Below the pieces are notes generated by a model. The model worked only from the letters and a program-made list of their open reading frames with translations, did not search any database and had not been told where the DNA came from. Made by a program: the position numbers and the translations under genes. 64,000 nt of DNA from a virus: the IMG/VR virus record IMGVR_UViG_3300010389_000004, positions 1 through 64,000 of that record; one strand, written 5' to 3'. Below are positions 2,594 through 61,396 of this stretch, piece by piece; the stretch's first letter is position 1; each line of letters opens with the position of its first letter.

Positions 2594-3180
2594 ACTCTCC
2601 GCCGCAACTCACAGAGCCAGGTGTAGTACGCGGCGTCCTCCCCACACATGCGGAAGACTTCCGCCGCGTGCGGGGGGACACTGACCAAGCCAGAATCTGA
2701 GAGGAATCGAAAATCCGCGTCTGTCACCAGGAACTCCCCTGACAACAACGCGGAACAATGCTGAATAGCGTCTCTACGGTTTTGGAATACCGCCCCCATC
2801 TGGGTAACGGTGTCTTCATCGGCGGACATCCCCATGAGGATGTAATCGGCCTGCGATTCGTTGAGTACGGACCCTTGGGCTTTCTTCGCTTCACGTCGTT
2901 TGTACACATCCCAAGCGTGCGCTGAGTTCAGCCACGCAGGACCGCGATTCGACGGCTTCAGAGGAACGGTGATATCCAGGAAGCGCTCGACCGACACACC
3001 CAACGACCGACACTTGGATACGAGAGAGACGAAGGTGTTGTAGTGTTTGCTGTGGCGCGGTCCTGACTTCGGGTGCCACATGAACACGCGCTTGCCTGCA
3101 ACGTCAGATAGTCTGCCCGCGTAGTGTCTGAGCGCCTGCTCAGCCTCTTCTTGCAGAAGCATTACTGCCATGCCTGCCAT
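2590..3180 (-). CDS. Hypothetical protein, first gene of helicase-primase operon
   Basis: ATGA overlap with helicase; start moved to ATG 3180 (GAGGTG SD, downstream of the terminator hairpin). Confidence 0.7.
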   Translation of the reverse strand: MAGMAVMLLQEEAEQALRHYAGRLSDVAGKRVFMWHPKSGPRHSKHYNTFVSLVSKCRSLGVSVERFLDITVPLKPSNRGPAWLNSAHAWDVYKRREAKKAQGSVLNESQADYILMGMSADEDTVTQMGAVFQNRRDAIQHCSALLSGEFLVTDADFRFLSDSGLVSVPPHAAEVFRMCGEDAAYYTWLCELRRRV

Positions 3181-3192
3181 CGAGCACCTCGC

Positions 3193-3235
3193 AAAAAAGT
3201 TCGGCTCCCTCACCCGTCACAGGAGGGAGCCGAAC
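3193..3235 (-). terminator. Intrinsic terminator/attenuator ahead of the replication operon
   Basis: Perfect 13-bp stem gttcggctccctc/gagggagccgaac followed by U6 on the minus strand. Confidence 0.85.
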
Positions 3236-3385
3236 CAAGCCGTCCACCTGGACGACCACCAGCAAGGGCACCAAACAAGACCACGGGTGTGACGGGTATG
3301 GTCTCGCTCGCAAGATGGTGAGGACGGCTGATGGAGCAACCGTCCTCGTATGACGTTGGAGCCGTGAGGTTTCTCCGTTGCCATG
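3193..3385 (-). ncRNA. Structured leader RNA or sRNA (about 190 nt, 4 hairpins)
   Basis: Hairpins 3320-3347, 3272-3310 (4 G-U pairs only on minus), about 3239-3256, then terminator; promoter upstream. Confidence 0.6.
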
Positions 3386-3391
3386 AGTACC

Positions 3392-3450
3392 ACCCTAAGA
3401 CGAAAAGTTTAGGTGTCAAGACTTGACACAGAAAATTCTTGCGGTACTTT
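3392..3450. promoter_or_regulatory. Back-to-back sigma70-like promoters sharing a TGTCAAG-A-CTTGACA palindrome
   Basis: Plus: TTGACA 3423-3428, 16 nt, TACTTT. Minus: TTGACA 3419-3414, 16 nt, TAGGGT. Confidence 0.6.
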
Positions 3451-3506
3451 TGTCCCCCTTGCTCACTTCCGGGGATACTCACCTATCCGAGCAGTTGACA
3501 GGATTG

Positions 3507-3576
3507 CACCGCAGCCACAGGTACGATCGGAGGGACCGGAATCTCTCCTTGAGTCCAGTGGCTGCGGTGTGTTTTT
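3507..3576 (+). promoter_or_regulatory. Long leader hairpin plus U-tract just before the RBS of the HTH gene
   Basis: 12-bp stem caccgcagccac/gtggctgcggtg, inner stem ggaggga/tctctcc, then tgttttt. Confidence 0.55.
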
Positions 3577-3586
3577 GAGGGAAGCT

Positions 3587-4042
3587 ATGCAGAACCACCA
3601 GCCACCACAACCCGTCGGCACCCCGATCTCCGCGAGGGAGATCCACTCGGGGTGCTACATACCCCCCGAGGTGTTGAACGACCCGAAGCTCTCGCCGGCC
3701 GCGAAGCTCGTCTACGGTCGTCTGCGTTGGCACGCCCGAGACAAATCCTCCTGCTGGCCGGCAGTCGCTACTTTGAGTGAAGCGCTAGGCATGAACTCCT
3801 CAACGATTCATCGAGCGCTCAAGACTCTCAAAGACCAAGGCTATATCATGATCTCCGGCGCCAAGTTTCGAAACTCGACTTATACCTTCCTTTTACATAG
3901 GCGGTTCTTGAAAGCACCGTCCGATATGCAAGGTGCTCAGCACGGAGGGTATTCAGCGCAAATAACACAGCCCGTCTATTTCAACACCACTGTGAATTTG
4001 CCCCCGAATACTCAAAACCAGACTTTTGAGGGAGACCTGTGA
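3587..4042 (+). CDS. Winged-HTH protein (HTH_36-like), probable replication initiator
   Basis: IPPEVLNDPKLSPAAKLVYGRL...CWPAVATLSEALGMNSSTIHRALKTLKDQGYI; GAGG SD before ATG 3587. Confidence 0.8.
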   Translation: MQNHQPPQPVGTPISAREIHSGCYIPPEVLNDPKLSPAAKLVYGRLRWHARDKSSCWPAVATLSEALGMNSSTIHRALKTLKDQGYIMISGAKFRNSTYTFLLHRRFLKAPSDMQGAQHGGYSAQITQPVYFNTTVNLPPNTQNQTFEGDL

Positions 4043-57598: not shown

Positions 57599-57970
57599 CT
57601 ACTTGGGCATGGGCGGGGCACCCGCTTGGGATGCCGGCGACATGTTCGCGTTGTCGGCGCCTGGGGCACCCCCAGCGGCAGGCGGGGCGGTCACGCCAGT
57701 TTCGATCTCTTGCTTGGCTTCGGCGAGGTTCGTCAAACCAACTTCGATCTTGGCAACGGTCTCCTCAGAAACCGCGGGGTCGGCTTCAGCAACCTTGTGG
57801 GCTTCCAGGCCGGCAGCCTGCGCAACCGTCAAAGCCTCAGTTGCCTTCTTCGCAGATTCCGCATCCGTCGCCGGCGGCTTGTCAGCAGCGGGTTGGGCAG
57901 CGGGTTGACCGGGCTGGGGAACGGTCGGAGGGACCTGCTTCCCGGCACCTTGGGTAGGCGCATCGTTCAT
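57599..57970 (-). CDS. Pro/Ala-rich low-complexity protein
   Basis: AGGAG SD before ATG 57970; followed by terminator. Confidence 0.7.
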   Translation of the reverse strand: MNDAPTQGAGKQVPPTVPQPGQPAAQPAADKPPATDAESAKKATEALTVAQAAGLEAHKVAEADPAVSEETVAKIEVGLTNLAEAKQEIETGVTAPPAAGGAPGADNANMSPASQAGAPPMPK

Positions 57971-58036
57971 GTGATTCTCCTGGTTCAAGAATTACGTTGG
58001 GCTTCTCCCAAACATACGGTCGGGAAACGACCTCCA

Positions 58037-60007
58037 TCAGCCCATCCTAGCGTTGATGTACGCTTGGTGGAAGTCGTTATCTGTCTCCTGACGGTTGTGC
58101 TCAACCTTGGCGTAGAGTGCTGGGTTTGAACGCACCATCTCTTCCAAAGCGGCTTGTGCGCCAAGACCTCGTGAGACGTTGAAGGACATTCTCTGTAGAA
58201 CAGCCAAGCCATCCACAATTGAGTCCACACAGTCATCGTGAGCGCCTGAAGGGAAAGCACACAGCTCGTCGATCGCTGCGTCAACCGAGGGGTTACGCTG
58301 CCCTGGCAGCAGATTGAAGGGCGCTGCCCATTCCCCACGTTCGAAAATGGGAGAAACGCCGAGGGCTCGGGTGGTCTTTGAATTGTTCCCGCGCTTCACC
58401 TCATACACCGGAGCGTGAAACCCAAGGCGGATGCTCAACTCATTGAGGGAATCAGCCAAGGCTTTTTGGAATGCCACGGATTCCACGAGAAAACCCAGGT
58501 GATGGAACGCGAATGCTTCCTCAGCGACGCCCTTACCCACCGTACCTGATCCCCAATACGACGCGCCTACTCGATTCGAGTAATAGACGTAGTGCTTGAA
58601 CATCAACATCATGATGCCAGCCATCGTGGTTCTGACGCGATCGACATCAAGCAGGTAGTATTTGCGTGTGCGGATTGAATAGCCCTGGGTGACGATAGCC
58701 GTGAAGTCATTATCGGCTTCTTCTGCACGCTTACCTCGTGAACCAGCAGGGTCCAATGAGGTAATGCAGATCAGGTCATCAGGCAGAACCTCCAGATTGA
58801 GGTTATTCATTTCCAGGTGGCGGAGTACGTTATCAGGTAATTCCTCACCCTTGCGCACCCAATACTTGATCCATGCTCGGTGGACGTATTTCGTTGCGTC
58901 ATCCACAGGCTCCAGCATGAATTCCTTCTGGAAAGCCCGAGACCCCAAGTCTCTCAATTTCCAGGATAGGTACGGGAGGTAGTAGATCGGCTGATTGGTC
59001 GCTTGCCGGTAAGCGAGTTCGGATTCGGTGAGTGGGTTACGCCATTCATCAATTGGGCGTAGAGGATCCATCGCTCCGTACTTTTGCTCCCACAACGGGT
59101 TTATGGGCAAGCCTTGCTCAGTGAATCCCTCACACGCTGGTTGCTTCGTCTTGATCCAGTTCGTTGTCCTGCGCTTGTCTTTCCATAAGCGCATAACCAG
59201 ATCGTCCTCATGCACGGTCGTACCGATGACGATGATATTGCCCACGCCAAGAGAGGGCACGTTGGATAGCGCTCCCCAGAACCAGTCCCATAACGACTCT
59301 CTAACCTTCACTGATTTGACGTGCTTGTCCTCAATGATGTCATCCAAGATGAGTAGGTCAGGACGCACGGATACCAGGTTGTTATAGATCGGCTGACCAT
59401 ACCGGTTCTTGGTGACGTAGCCTGAAGGCAAGTCATCCGGGAAGGACTCGTTGGCACCACGGAGCGCACCACCTGTTGAAGCTGAGAATACGGCTACCTG
59501 GTTGGTGGTTCTCAGGTACTTGTGACGCCAGCCTTGCTTCTTGGCTCCGCCAGTTTCGGTGTCGCCTACCAAGTCTCCGAAAGCCTTTCGGATTACCTCG
59601 TTCTGCTCAAGCTCCATTCGAATCTTGCCAAGGAAGCGCTCAGCGTTTCCTGACGTGCTGGAGATGACGCCGATGTACCGACGCTTGCGGTAGCAGACGC
59701 ACCAGAGCACATACGCAAAAGAGACCACGGTGGATTTGCCGTGATCTCGTGGAACGAGCTTCAGGAGGTGTTTGCCGTTCTTGAGTGTTTGTAGGTCTTG
59801 GATCAACCCCGAGTGAAAGGGTGCGAAGTGCTCTGAGAAGTGACCCGCCAGGAATACCCTACAGAACATCTTGAACGAGCCAGCACACAGCAAGGTCCAC
59901 TCTTTGAGAGTGTACTTGGAGAAGTCAACCTTGACCGGATCGAGGACGGCTGGGGACATACTGCTTTTCTCTACGACGACAACAGAGACCGAATAGAGTG
60001 CCGTCAT
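58037..60007 (-). CDS. terL: Terminase large subunit
   Basis: PRDHGKST Walker A, LLILDDIIED Walker B, VIGT, FQKEFM, SLDPA, DNDFTA, FPSGAHDDCVDS; start may be 59959. Confidence 0.95.
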   Translation of the reverse strand: MTALYSVSVVVVEKSSMSPAVLDPVKVDFSKYTLKEWTLLCAGSFKMFCRVFLAGHFSEHFAPFHSGLIQDLQTLKNGKHLLKLVPRDHGKSTVVSFAYVLWCVCYRKRRYIGVISSTSGNAERFLGKIRMELEQNEVIRKAFGDLVGDTETGGAKKQGWRHKYLRTTNQVAVFSASTGGALRGANESFPDDLPSGYVTKNRYGQPIYNNLVSVRPDLLILDDIIEDKHVKSVKVRESLWDWFWGALSNVPSLGVGNIIVIGTTVHEDDLVMRLWKDKRRTTNWIKTKQPACEGFTEQGLPINPLWEQKYGAMDPLRPIDEWRNPLTESELAYRQATNQPIYYLPYLSWKLRDLGSRAFQKEFMLEPVDDATKYVHRAWIKYWVRKGEELPDNVLRHLEMNNLNLEVLPDDLICITSLDPAGSRGKRAEEADNDFTAIVTQGYSIRTRKYYLLDVDRVRTTMAGIMMLMFKHYVYYSNRVGASYWGSGTVGKGVAEEAFAFHHLGFLVESVAFQKALADSLNELSIRLGFHAPVYEVKRGNNSKTTRALGVSPIFERGEWAAPFNLLPGQRNPSVDAAIDELCAFPSGAHDDCVDSIVDGLAVLQRMSFNVSRGLGAQAALEEMVRSNPALYAKVEHNRQETDNDFHQAYINARMG

Positions 60008-60021
60008 AGTGCGGGTGTGTC

Positions 60022-60516
60022 AAATGAGAAAGCCCGGACCGGGCGAGGAGATCCGGGCTTCTCGATGCAGGCTCGCGCAGGGAAGAGCTGCAAGCCTGCT
60101 TGGTGCAGGAGACACGGGCAACGTCTCCTGTTTGGGTCTCCCCTCCCACCACAGATGGGAGACCCGTCTGCTCGTCTCGGGGCTAGGAGACGAGCAAGGT
60201 GAGGGTGGTAGAGTGTTGGGGGCTACCACCCTTGTGAGACTGCCTGCCTTTCCCCGTGCGGGCAGTCTCGTGTCGGCATTCTCCACAGGGATGCGAAACC
60301 TGCGTGCTCCTGCCGACAAAATAAGGAGCGGGTGAGTGGCTGATGAGGTGCAGATGACCACCCACCCTGAACCCCGTGGTGACTCCTCATGACGGTCTGT
60401 GTGTGCGTTCCACACCATGAGAAGTTGTACCTACACAGTACGAGGGTCTGAGGGTAAGTTACGTTTACTGAGTTCCTCATGCAATAGGAAAAGCCGTCCA
60501 TGGGCAGGACGGCTCT
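60022..60516 (-). ncRNA. Candidate large multi-hairpin non-coding RNA
   Basis: 11 stems of 8-11 bp; G-U pairs mostly favour the minus strand; bounded by two terminator-like hairpins; no credible ORF. Confidence 0.65.
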
Positions 60517-60623
60517 CACTACGGGCTGTAACTACGAGTTGAGTGCAGCGATGACCTGGACAGCGTTGGGTGGAACACTCGGTCTTTCTCGCCCATTATC
60601 GTAGCCAGGCTCCTGAGGGTTGC

Positions 60624-60815
60624 TCAATACTCGAACTCGCCCACCCACTTCCTACGCAACAGCGCCTCACGCGTTGACTGATGCATCAGCTTTACCAGGG
60701 CATCATCTTGTCGCTCGGCTTCCTCATACCACTCCCCTATCGAGTAGAATTCTGGCTGGTCGGAGTCTTCAGGCAGCAGCCAGGCGAACACTGAAGCTGT
60801 TGCGTCGTAGCCCAC
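60624..60815 (-). CDS. Small hypothetical protein
   Basis: GTG start with GGAG SD. Confidence 0.55.
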   Translation of the reverse strand: MGYDATASVFAWLLPEDSDQPEFYSIGEWYEEAERQDDALVKLMHQSTREALLRRKWVGEFEY

Positions 60816-60819
60816 GAAT

Positions 60820-60969
60820 TCATTCTCCCAGGTTATTGACCTTTTCCAGGGCGTTCAGCAGAGAGTCGTATACCGGCGCCCACTTCTCGCGCTCCTCGGC
60901 GCCTTTGTTCATGATTGCGTCTACTGACCCAATCAGCTTGGTGATTTCTCTGGCGATATCATCTGACAT
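60820..60969 (-). CDS. 49-aa protein not in the ORF track (MSDDIAREITKLIG...)
   Basis: GAGG SD, overlaps the upstream stop, fills the gap. Confidence 0.6.
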   Translation of the reverse strand: MSDDIAREITKLIGSVDAIMNKGAEEREKWAPVYDSLLNALEKVNNLGE

Positions 60970-61396
60970 TGAGTGCGTCCTCGATCAACTCAATCAGAGG
61001 GAGGTGGATTTGAATGCCATGCGCTCTGTATTCGACCCCCGAGTGTTTACCCAGTACCTGCGCTGAAGCACACCAGACCTCTTGGGGGTCTGTATCGTTT
61101 GGAGATTTGATAAGGCGACGCACAAACTCCAGCTTGAGAGAAAAGAGCTTACCGATACTCGCTAGCCTCAGCAGCATGTCATAACAGAGTATGGCATAAG
61201 CGACTTCAGGAGGACACGACGCGAAAATCCCTATACCCTCTTCTCCTTTTCCCTCACCACGACGGTCTGCTACCAAGGCTTCGCCGAATCCCCAGAGGAT
61301 CCCCATATTGCCGGCGCCGCCCCCAAACTCGGGCAAATCCCACTCCAGTTTCGTGTACAGGTCGGTGATGTCCGCCAGGGCTTGTTTGAAATCCAC
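60959..61396 (-). CDS. Hypothetical protein
   Basis: Packed minus-strand ORF. Confidence 0.65.
   Translation of the reverse strand: MDFKQALADITDLYTKLEWDLPEFGGGAGNMGILWGFGEALVADRRGEGKGEEGIGIFASCPPEVAYAILCYDMLLRLASIGKLFSLKLEFVRRLIKSPNDTDPQEVWCASAQVLGKHSGVEYRAHGIQIHLPLIELIEDALNVR

What the first reader, a model, noticed from the sequence alone, without database searches (positions are those of the whole stretch)
60022..60516. Dense array of 11 hairpins upstream of terL: candidate novel large phage ncRNA in the usual terS position
Seen: stems at 60030-60060, 60067-60099, 60106-60130, 60134-60165, 60169-60196, 60202-60232, 60236-60269, 60271-60318, 60330-60367, 60386-60421 and 60492-60514. The first nine are only 1-11 nt apart. 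G-U pairs in five stems favour the minus strand (one favours plus). The two outer hairpins have U tails on minus, bracketing a ~400-nt unit. Four stems share GAGAC/GTCTC. No credible ORF, and no recognisable small terminase in the window. Established: phages encode large structured RNAs (phi29 pRNA, GOLLD, ROOL). Inference: an undescribed structural or regulatory RNA, possibly packaging-related or a pac-region structure.
Basis: partly seen in the sequence, partly recalled or inferred. Interest (0 to 1): 0.88.

Follow-up and report, generated by a model that had tools for sequence, protein, structure and literature searches.

The report
Hairpin-array RNA leader before phage terminase
A 500-base gene-free stretch just before an uncultured phage's DNA-packaging gene really is a string of about eleven tight stem-loops, bracketed by two transcription stop signals; it looks like an unusually expanded control region at the switch from early to late genes, not one large ornate RNA, and its exact job is unproven.

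Summary
Window 60022-60516 folds into 11 closely packed hairpins and is the most structured stretch of the 94-kb virus record. No reading frame in it looks coding, and it meets no Rfam gathering threshold.

The hairpins fold independently, like beads on a string, with no multi-helix junctions. The array is absent from every relative I could fetch (terL 38-53% identical).

Two relatives (L003, L082) carry a compact unit at this spot: a near-consensus promoter, a 75-100 nt leader and an intrinsic terminator. That terminator's loop contains GCCC. The same GCCC motif sits in 5 of 12 loops here, against about 1% of hairpins elsewhere.

All genes from 13 to 94 kb lie on the minus strand, so the array marks the boundary between the replication/accessory genes and terL. 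Both outer hairpins are terminator-like on that strand.

Best reading (about 0.4): a lineage-specific, expanded, transcribed leader or insulator of the late operon, whose GCCC loops may be bound by a regulator.

Rivals are a trans-acting anti-Shine-Dalgarno RNA, a DNA-level site, or functionless hairpin accretion. I found no expression or covariation data.

The scan has noted hairpin arrays beside terminase genes before, on other DNA.

The parts
60624..60815 (-). orf63, the last credible protein gene upstream of the array (orf49 at 60820-60969 precedes it)
   Evidence: Positive codon-usage score in frame 0 only. GGGAGAA ribosome-binding site 7 nt before the GTG start. No Pfam or PHROGs family.
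60598..60627 (-). Weak promoter-like site, TTGAGC-18-TACGAT (8 of 12), directly after the orf63 stop codon
   Evidence: Relaxed scan. Below the threshold of the standard scan, which found none. It occupies the same position as the TTGACA-18-TAGAAT promoters of L003 and L082.
60489..60517 (-). H1: terminator-like hairpin with an 11-bp stem, loop UGCCCAU and tail UUUUCCUAUU
   Evidence: I1. Its GAGA...UUUUC flanks and its loop resemble the pre-terL hairpin of L082 (loop CUGCCCA).
60425..60488 (-). Less structured spacer; holds a weak hairpin seen only in the MFE structure
   Evidence: No sigma-70-like promoter here at the thresholds used.
60383..60424 (-). H3: hairpin with an internal loop
   Evidence: -15.2 kcal/mol on minus against -10.3 on plus.
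60330..60367 (-). H4: 11-bp stem, 16-nt loop CAUCUGCACCUCAUCA
60271..60318 (-). H5: two-part hairpin (8 bp plus 6 bp)
60236..60269 (-). H6: GAGAC...GUCUC stem with a G-rich loop
   Evidence: I3.
60202..60232 (-). H7: perfect 10-bp stem, loop CCCCCAACACU (GCCC with the closing G)
   Evidence: I5.
60168..60197 (-). H8: 10-11 bp stem containing GUCUC/GAGAC, loop CUAGCCCC
   Evidence: I4.
60134..60165 (-). H9: GGGUCUCCC/GGGAGACCC stem
   Evidence: I2.
60106..60130 (-). H10: CAGGAGAC/GUCUCCUG stem, loop UUGCCCG
60067..60099 (-). H11: loop UCUUCCCU (7 of 9 match to the cuckoo motif CCUCCUCCC)
60027..60063 (-). H12: terminator-like hairpin, loop UCCUCGCCC, tail UUUCUCAUUUGAC
   Evidence: (flagged as terminator-like on minus). 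The tail resembles those of the pre-terL terminators of L003 and L082. One strain variant has an extra A in the loop.
59997..60015 (.). Variable patch: 6 substitutions within 19 nt, shared by contigs from three other sequencing runs
   Evidence: table 3. One of the substitutions destroys the ATG at 60007.
58037..59959 (-). terL, first gene of the conserved structural module. The longest ORF starts at 60007, but the likely start is the ATG at 59959.
   Evidence: Pfam Terminase_6C. PHROGs phrog_38, E 1e-76. The near-identical protein on record is 640 aa. The ATG at 60007 is lost in variant contigs.

Best explanation
The array is a transcribed, minus-sense, non-coding leader or insulator at the junction between the replication/accessory genes and the late (structural) operon that begins with terL. 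It is specific to this phage lineage.

Proposed sequence of events:
1. Transcription arrives from upstream, and perhaps also from a weak promoter-like site at 60627-60598.
2. It first meets terminator H1.
3. RNA polymerase that continues, or that starts after H1, transcribes nine independently folding hairpins.
4. It then meets a second terminator, H12, which ends 19 nt upstream of the ATG at 60007 and 67 nt upstream of the likely terL start at 59959.

The product is therefore one of two things: a terminated, nuclease-resistant RNA of a few hundred nucleotides, or, when termination is overcome, the 5' leader of the late mRNA.

The relatives carry a short version of this element (promoter, 75-100 nt leader, one terminator with a GCCC loop). 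That layout matches lambda's PR'-6S RNA-tR' unit. In this phage the element has been expanded by adding hairpins, several with the same GCCC loop. I infer that these loops are contact points for a factor that decides whether polymerase runs on into terL.

Shown: the structure, the non-coding status, the gene orientation, the terminator-like features, the promoter-leader-terminator layout in L003 and L082 (terminator-like hairpins alone in L002 and L005), and the loop-motif enrichment.
Inferred: transcription itself, termination or antitermination, and the existence of a binding factor.
For: Structure and non-coding status:
- z = -7.8, and the most structured 520-nt window in 94 kb.
- No frame in the array looks coding.

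Genome context:
- Almost all long ORFs between 13 and 94 kb lie on the minus strand. PolA lies upstream of the array, and terL, portal, major tail and the tape-measure candidate lie downstream.
- Synteny with relatives holds downstream of terL and is lost upstream of it, so the array sits at a module junction.

Terminators:
- H1 and H12 have GC-rich stems and U-rich tails on minus only.
- Single hairpins with U tails separate genes elsewhere in this genome.

Relatives:
- L003 and L082 have TTGACA-18-TAGAAT (11 of 12), followed by a terminator hairpin directly upstream of terL.
- L002 and L005 also have a terminator-like hairpin there.

GCCC loop motif:
- Present in 5 of 12 loops here (p about 0.004).
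- Present in the pre-terL terminators of L003 and L082.
- Present in only 9 other of 1177 sense-strand hairpins in 1.56 Mb of related loci, and in 2 other hairpins of four whole genomes.

Strand bias:
- 12 G-U pairs on minus against 3 on plus, even though base composition favours G-U pairing on plus.

Cruciform and dimer-site readings are disfavoured (inference): loops of 7-16 nt and variable arm spacing fit poorly with cruciform extrusion or with sites for a dimeric DNA-binding protein.
Against: - There is no evidence of transcription.
- No sigma-70-like promoter at standard thresholds lies in front of the array or between H12 and terL.
- Nine of the eleven hairpins lack U tails, so they are not intrinsic terminators. 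Relatives manage with one hairpin, so the expansion itself is unexplained.
- No Q-type antiterminator family (PF06530, PF03589) was found in this record or in three relatives, although these records are only 78-87% complete and such proteins are diverse.
- The GCCC motif was noticed partly after seeing L082, so its statistics are not fully independent.
- No covariation test is possible. The only near relatives are more than 99% identical across the array.
Confidence: 0.4

Rival explanations
1. The array is an independent, trans-acting non-coding RNA: a moron-like cassette between two terminators. Its C-rich apical loops would pair with G-rich or Shine-Dalgarno sequences of phage or host mRNAs, or would sponge an RNA-binding protein. 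This is how the multi-hairpin 'cuckoo' sRNAs (alpha-r14, CcsR1-4) of Alphaproteobacteria are thought to work.
For: - The last three hairpins (60025-60137, minus strand) give a full-length but sub-threshold match to Rfam ar14: 32.5 bits, E 3e-4 for the stretch searched and 1e-5 for the genome.
- Loops are 41% C.
- The H12 loop contains UCUCCUC and the top of H8 contains CGUCUCCUA. Both are complementary to the phage's own AGGAGA(A/C) ribosome-binding sites.
- Cuckoo RNAs are rows of 2-4 hairpins of 24-50 nt with variable stems, and occur in clusters of up to 9 copies (PMC4615179).
- Terminators bracket the unit on the minus strand.
Against: - The score is far below the gathering threshold (58.8 bits).
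- No loop carries CCUCCUCCC; the best matches are 7 of 9, in two loops.
- Most UCUCC sequences are buried in stems.
- The relatives' pre-terL units give no ar14 match.
- No DUF1127 gene lies upstream.
- The host is unknown, and no promoter was recognised after H1.
Confidence: 0.2
2. The array has no function of its own. It would be a lineage-specific accretion of palindromes, by template switching, duplication or small mobile hairpins, in a tolerant non-coding junction. Only the two terminators would do any work.
For: - It is absent from all relatives.
- It is known only from near-identical strains.
- Hairpin sequences are mutually unrelated apart from short shared cores (GAGAC, GCCC).
- A multi-substitution patch lies right beside it, as templated mutagenesis would produce.
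Against: - Eleven near-perfect stems packed 1-11 nt apart form the most extreme structure in the genome.
- The loop motif is strand-specific and shared with the relatives' terminators.
- The G-U asymmetry also points to one strand.
- Phage genomes are compact, and 450 nt of dead weight at a key junction is unusual (inference).
Confidence: 0.15
3. The array is a DNA-level element acting in single- or double-stranded DNA: a packaging recognition site (pac or cos), a genome-end region, or a replication origin or iteron field with GAGAC as the protein-binding core.
For: - It lies next to terL, where pac and cos sites often lie (established knowledge).
- The hairpins fold equally well with DNA parameters (z -7.4).
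- GAGAC/GTCTC is 7-fold enriched, with 8 copies in 160 bp.
- A related phage's contig (L004) ends about 150 nt upstream of its terL.
Against: - The shared core is only 5 nt. It lies at different heights and in both orientations within the stems, with arm spacing of 12-29 nt. This is unlike iterons or terS-binding repeats.
- No direct repeats of 9 nt or more occur inside the array.
- There is no AT-rich unwinding region, and cumulative GC skew does not turn near 60 kb.
- The outer hairpins and the relatives' counterparts carry U-tracts on the coding strand, which is an RNA-level signature.
- No contig laid on the region ends inside the array.
Confidence: 0.12
4. One reading: one large, ornate structural RNA of about 400 nt, comparable to pRNA, GOLLD or ROOL, possibly part of the packaging machine in place of a small terminase.
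For: - Its size, its location beside terL, its strong folding signal and its bracketing terminators.
- No terS recognised nearby.
Against: - There are no multi-stem junctions and no long-range helices in the centroid structure.
- No Rfam match to GOLLD, ROOL or pRNA, even at E up to 10.
- It is absent from relatives that share the same terL, portal and head genes. Those relatives would therefore package without it.
Confidence: 0.05

Closest known systems
Lambda late-operon leader: PR' promoter, 6S RNA, tR' terminator, read through by Q-modified RNA polymerase
   Same: In relatives L003 and L082, a near-consensus promoter is followed by a short leader and an intrinsic terminator directly in front of the late genes. 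The window has two terminator-like hairpins in the same place and orientation.
   Different: - The leader here is about 450-600 nt and consists of about 10 stacked hairpins.
- No good promoter and no Q-family protein were found.
- Antitermination is inferred, not shown.
Nut sites (boxA and boxB hairpin) of lambdoid phages, and the put RNA of HK022
   Same: Small RNA hairpins in an operon leader upstream of terminators. Their loops, not their stems, carry the conserved signal and act on the transcribing polymerase.
   Different: - The loop motif here is GCCC, not the GAAAA-type boxB loop.
- There are up to five copies rather than one.
- In the relatives the motif sits in the terminator hairpin itself.
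- No N-like protein was identified, and there is no sequence similarity to put.
Cuckoo RNA family (alpha-r14 = Rfam RF02344, RSs0680/CcsR1-4; PMC4615179, PMC8034643)
   Same: Rows of adjacent 24-50 nt hairpins with variable stems, C-rich loops and a terminal terminator, occurring in clusters. Weak full-length ar14 match to the last three hairpins.
   Different: - The defining CCUCCUCCC loop motif is absent (best 7 of 9).
- The score is 32.5 bits against a threshold of 58.8.
- No DUF1127 gene lies upstream.
- The element is phage-borne and its host is unknown.
REP/BIME clusters of enterobacterial intergenic regions
   Same: Tandem palindromic units in transcribed intergenic DNA that form RNA hairpins and can stabilise or insulate transcripts.
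   Different: REP units within one genome share a consensus sequence and recur at many loci. Here every hairpin differs from the others, and the cluster is unique in the genome.
GOLLD, ROOL and phi29 pRNA (large structured phage-associated RNAs)
   Same: Phage-encoded, non-coding, several hundred nucleotides long.
   Different: Those RNAs have conserved multi-helix architectures and are found across many genomes. This is a string of simple hairpins, matches none of them in Rfam, and has no homologues.

Membership tests
Rfam ar14 (RF02344) / cuckoo RNA family | Covariance-model score at or above the gathering threshold (58.8 bits) | tested here: not met
   32.5 bits for 60025-60137 on the minus strand.
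Rfam ar14 (RF02344) / cuckoo RNA family | Each hairpin loop carries the anti-SD motif CCUCCUCCC (PMC4615179) | tested here: not met
   The best loop matches are 7 of 9 (H11, H12) and 6 of 9 in three others. There is no exact copy.
Rfam ar14 (RF02344) / cuckoo RNA family | 2-4 adjacent hairpins of 24-50 nt with loops of 9-27 nt and no multiloops, sometimes clustered | tested here: met
   Hairpins are 25-48 nt and directly adjacent, with no multiloop in the centroid structure. Loops are 6-16 nt, so some are shorter than the family range.
Intrinsic (Rho-independent) terminator (H1 and H12 only) | GC-rich stem-loop followed by a U-rich tract on the transcribed strand, placed downstream of a gene or unit | tested here: met
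   H1: 11-bp stem, tail UUUUCCUAUU. H12: 12-bp stem, tail UUUCUCAUUU, flagged by the scan. Actual termination was not tested.
Lambda-type late leader (promoter, short terminated RNA, terminator, late genes) | Constitutive promoter closely upstream of a terminator that precedes the late operon | tested here: inconclusive
   Clear in relatives L003 and L082 (11 of 12 promoter plus terminator). In the window there is only an 8 of 12 candidate at 60627-60598.
Lambda-type late leader (promoter, short terminated RNA, terminator, late genes) | A Q-type antiterminator gene in the phage | tested here: not met
   PF06530 and PF03589 are absent from G000-G003 at E up to 0.1. The records are incomplete and Q proteins are diverse, so this is weak negative evidence.
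GOLLD / ROOL / phi29 pRNA and any other Rfam family | Match to the family covariance model | tested here: not met
   No match at gathering thresholds in the whole window. None of these families is listed even at E up to 10 in 59800-61100.
Structured RNA under selection (general) | Compensatory base changes across homologues | not testable with these tools
   No diverged homologue of the array exists in IMG/VR, GTDB genomes or GenBank phages. The strains that do carry it are more than 99% identical across it.
Iteron-type replication origin or terS-binding pac site | Several direct repeats of one sequence of 8 nt or more at regular spacing | tested here: not met
   No direct repeat of 9 nt or more lies within the array. 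The only shared core is the 5-mer GAGAC, in both orientations and at irregular spacing.

The most novel reading that the evidence does not exclude
The GCCC-loop hairpin is the RNA recognition element of an undescribed late-gene switch in this uncultured group of large siphoviruses. A phage or host factor would bind the loop of the nascent pre-terL terminator or leader and decide whether polymerase enters the packaging and structural operon. This phage would have multiplied the element into an array of about ten hairpins, which could also act as a decoy or sponge for that factor once released as a stable RNA.
Probability: 0.15. Interest if true: 0.7.

Novelty: new variant of a known kind. Interest (0 to 1): 0.45.

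Why it matters
How large uncultured phages with all genes on one strand switch from replication genes to packaging and structural genes is mostly unknown.

This locus and its relatives point to a terminator-controlled entry into terL. That entry carries a short conserved loop motif, and in one lineage it has been expanded dramatically into a hairpin array. If the loops are a regulator's target, this would be a new RNA-based late switch and a compact model for how such elements expand.

This scan has flagged structured non-coding stretches beside terminase genes in several unrelated phages. That suggests a more general, undescribed use of the region in front of the packaging genes.

If the array is only an accretion of palindromes, it is a curiosity.

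Tried and rejected
Searches for homologues of the array:
The contigs behind the closest terL proteins (P0001, P0002, P0005-P0007) could therefore not be fetched.
- No hit with an exact pattern in IMG/VR.
- No hit by blastn against GenBank phages.
- No hit with a gapped pattern in GTDB genomes.
- The terL profile found no prophage relative in GTDB genomes, so no host was obtained.
- The protein-atlas search was unreachable twice.

Sequencing runs:
- No RNA holder was listed.
- Contigs from four DNA runs were laid on the region. One 9.6-kb contig is apparently identical across the array and diverges only upstream of 61059.
- A second variant (runs X2 and X4) has an extra A in the H12 loop and two further substitutions (C>T and G>A) somewhere in 60016-60075. 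I could not place these because the table was truncated.

Ideas considered and dropped:
- N4-type hairpin promoters for a virion RNA polymerase. The 3509-aa protein follows the major tail gene in tape-measure position and has no family hit, and N4 promoters have 3-nt loops.
- A long-range helix between H1 and the start of terL. The shared 9-mer is expected by chance, at about 0.8 per region.
- Small plus-strand ORFs behind the AGGAGA sites. The spacing is wrong or the ORFs are tiny.
- A CsrA-type GGA sponge. The GGA motifs lie in stems.
- CRISPR-repeat mimicry, decayed tRNA genes, and RNase III sites (stems too short).
- A remnant of the relatives' upstream gene. tblastn found no trace of it in this genome.
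- DUF1127 upstream, as for CcsR.
- Other weak Rfam hits (snoR9, Hammerhead_II, miRNAs), all far below threshold.
- The literature searches did not find a described equivalent.

Full report
**Context**

The window is the first 64 kb of a 94,081-bp IMG/VR virus record. The record is linear and estimated 78% complete.

From about 13 kb to the end of the record, almost all long ORFs are on the minus strand:
- A family A DNA polymerase lies at 75.8-79.2 kb.
- terL is at 58037-60007 on the minus strand (Pfam Terminase_6C; PHROGs phrog_38, E 1e-76).
- The portal, a major tail protein and a 3509-aa protein in tape-measure position follow downstream.

The finding therefore sits in a co-directional gene stream, at the junction between the replication/accessory genes and the structural module.

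The phage has no close cultured relative. The best terL identity in GenBank phages is 25%. The host is unknown.

Yes.
- RNAfold of 60010-60530 on the minus strand gives -245.3 kcal/mol, with z = -7.8 against dinucleotide shuffles. The plus strand gives z = -5.1, and DNA parameters give z = -7.4.
They persist when the folded stretch is extended to 671 nt.
- Among 360 overlapping 520-nt windows of the whole record, this one has the lowest energy and the largest GC-corrected residual.
- It holds seven Watson-Crick-only stems of at least 8 bp within 600 nt. No 600-nt window exceeds three in three complete related genomes, or four in 1.84 Mb of fetched loci (mostly the surroundings of terL homologues).
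- GAGAC/GTCTC occurs eight times against 1.1 expected, in four adjacent stems.
- The ORFs of 98-132 aa that overlap the array score negative in every frame on the phage's own codon usage, while real genes score positive in frame 0 only.
- orf49 (60820-60969) and orf63 (60624-60815) look coding. The 38-aa ORF at 60532-60648 does not. The non-coding gap therefore runs from about 60623 down to terL.
- The ATG at 60007 is lost in three other environmental strains, and the protein on record is 640 aa. terL therefore probably starts at 59959.

**Which strand, and RNA or DNA?**

- The stems are mostly Watson-Crick, so both strands fold.
- The minus strand has 12 G-U pairs against 3 on plus. Seven of eleven hairpins are more stable on minus, even though shuffled plus-strand sequence folds better.
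- The outermost hairpins, H1 (60489-60517) and H12 (60027-60063), have U-rich tails on minus only. H12 was flagged by the terminator scan.
- Elsewhere in this genome, single hairpins with U tails separate minus-strand genes.
- Loops of 6-16 nt and variable arm spacing argue against cruciforms or dimeric protein sites in duplex DNA (inference).

I read this as favouring a minus-sense RNA. Single-stranded DNA is not excluded.

**Relatives**

Protein and profile searches recovered seven lineages or loci with terL 38-53% identical: L002, L003, L005, L082/L083, L086 and L087.
- Synteny holds downstream of terL (portal and the following genes) and is lost upstream of it.
- None has a hairpin array upstream of terL. 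The three whole related records fetched (G001-G003) have none anywhere else either.
- Each instead has a protein gene of 194-356 aa ending 100-250 nt before terL. The genes of L002, L003 and L082 are homologous to one another and have no counterpart in this genome.

The short gap in the relatives is informative:
- L003 and L082 carry a near-consensus promoter, TTGACA-18-TAGAAT (11 of 12). A 75-100 nt leader and a strong hairpin with a U-rich tail follow, directly in front of terL.
- L002 and L005 also have a terminator-like hairpin there.
- This is the layout of lambda's late leader: PR', 6S RNA, tR' (established knowledge).

So in this phage group the spot upstream of terL is an operon boundary with a terminator, not a terS slot.

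**A shared loop motif**

- On the minus strand the array's loops are 41% C. Five of twelve contain GCCC (H1, H7, H8, H10, H12; p about 0.004 by two shuffling schemes).
- The pre-terL terminators of L003 (loop UUAGCCCGG) and L082 (loop CUGCCCA) also carry GCCC, on completely different stems.
- H1 and the L082 hairpin share the GAGA...UUUUC flanks as well.
- In the 160 loci from the terL profile searches (1.56 Mb), only 13 of 1177 sense-strand hairpins have GCCC in the loop. Four of these are the L003/L085 and L082/L083 terminators.
- In four whole genomes, only two GCCC-loop hairpins lie outside the pre-terL regions.

I partly noticed the motif after seeing L082, so the statistics are not fully independent. 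The association with the pre-terL position in three lineages is still the only conservation signal available. It points to an RNA-level element whose loop matters.

**Known RNA families**

- Nothing reaches a gathering threshold in the window.
- At relaxed thresholds the last three hairpins (60025-60137, minus strand) give a full-length match to ar14 (RF02344). This is a three-hairpin alphaproteobacterial sRNA with CCUCCUCCC anti-SD loops. The score is 32.5 bits against a threshold of 58.8, with E 3e-4 for the stretch searched and 1e-5 for the genome.
- The cuckoo family, to which ar14 belongs, consists of rows of 2-4 hairpins of 24-50 nt with variable stems, and is clustered in Rhodobacteraceae (PMC4615179). 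The architecture is therefore similar.
- The defining loop motif is absent, with best matches of 7 of 9. The relatives' units do not match ar14. No DUF1127 gene lies upstream.
- I treat this as a resemblance in design, not as membership.

**Strain variation**

Contigs from four DNA runs in three studies hold parts of the region.
- A 9.6-kb contig appears identical across terL and the array. It differs at six positions within 59997-60015 and diverges strongly upstream of 61059.
- A second variant has an extra A in the H12 loop and two substitutions that I could not place.
- The array is thus maintained in several populations, but there is not enough divergence to test covariation.

**Most likely mechanism (confidence about 0.4)**

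The array is an expanded, transcribed leader or insulator of the late operon.
- Transcripts from upstream, and perhaps from a weak TTGAGC-18-TACGAT site at 60627-60598, meet H1.
- Polymerase that continues transcribes nine independent hairpins and meets H12 just before terL.
- The result is either a stable terminated RNA or, after antitermination, the 5' leader of the late mRNA.
- The GCCC loops are candidate contacts for the factor that controls this step.

Weaknesses of this reading:
- Transcription has not been shown.
- There is no good promoter.
- No Q-family protein was found.
- The nine hairpins without U tails remain unexplained.

**Rivals**

| Reading | Confidence |
|---|---|
| Trans-acting anti-SD or sponge RNA | 0.2 |
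| Functionless accretion of palindromes | 0.15 |
| DNA-level pac, cos or origin element | 0.12 |

The last is disfavoured by the bead-like architecture, the lack of any family match, and its absence from relatives that share the packaging genes.

**Verdict**

The feature is real and striking, but specific to one lineage. It is best described as a new variant of a known kind of element: a structured leader and terminator region at a phage early/late boundary. Interest is moderate.

Earlier notes of this scan describe hairpin arrays or structured RNA modules beside terminase genes in other genomes. I used them as leads only.

Noticed in passing
window 59997-60015: Six substitutions within 19 nt distinguish this record from contigs of three other runs that are otherwise near-identical here. 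One substitution removes the ATG at 60007, so terL most likely starts at 59959.
   Followed up: partly
window 61059 onwards (upstream of the array): A 9.6-kb contig from another sample appears identical to the window from 58800 to 61058 apart from that patch. It then drops to roughly 80-88% identity inside the 145-aa ORF. This marks a recombination (mosaic) boundary.
   Followed up: no
L003:6657-7727, L082:6818-7837, L002:7029-7751: The gene directly upstream of the promoter-leader-terminator unit in the closest relatives encodes a protein with conserved N- and C-terminal domains joined by a long Pro/Glu-rich linker. It has no family hit and no homologue in this genome. Its position parallels that of lambda Q relative to PR'.
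   Followed up: partly
window 3121-3640 (hairpin 3199-3235; TTGACA promoters at 3392-3419 minus and 3423-3450 plus): This is the second most structured 520-nt window of the genome. It is a divergent non-coding region with two back-to-back promoter-like sites with a perfect TTGACA -35 element, and the equivalent arrangement recurs in relatives G001 and G002. It is probably the early control region.
   Followed up: no
G000:C1:93274-93313 (outside the window): A perfect 18-bp palindrome with a 4-nt loop, the longest in the record, lies near the contig end.
   Followed up: no
L004 (IMG/VR contig of 68,444 bp): The contig ends about 150 nt upstream of its terL, while the near-identical L005 contig continues. 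This could be an assembly break, or a hint of a physical genome end near terL.
   Followed up: no
window 58037-60007: The terL match to phrog_38 starts at profile position 268 of 760, so members of that family often carry about 260 extra N-terminal positions that this protein lacks.
   Followed up: no
window 57599-57988: The 129-aa ORF directly downstream of terL is conserved in L002, L003 and L082 (45-54% identity over about 50 aa) and has no family hit. It is a candidate for a packaging accessory protein.
   Followed up: no
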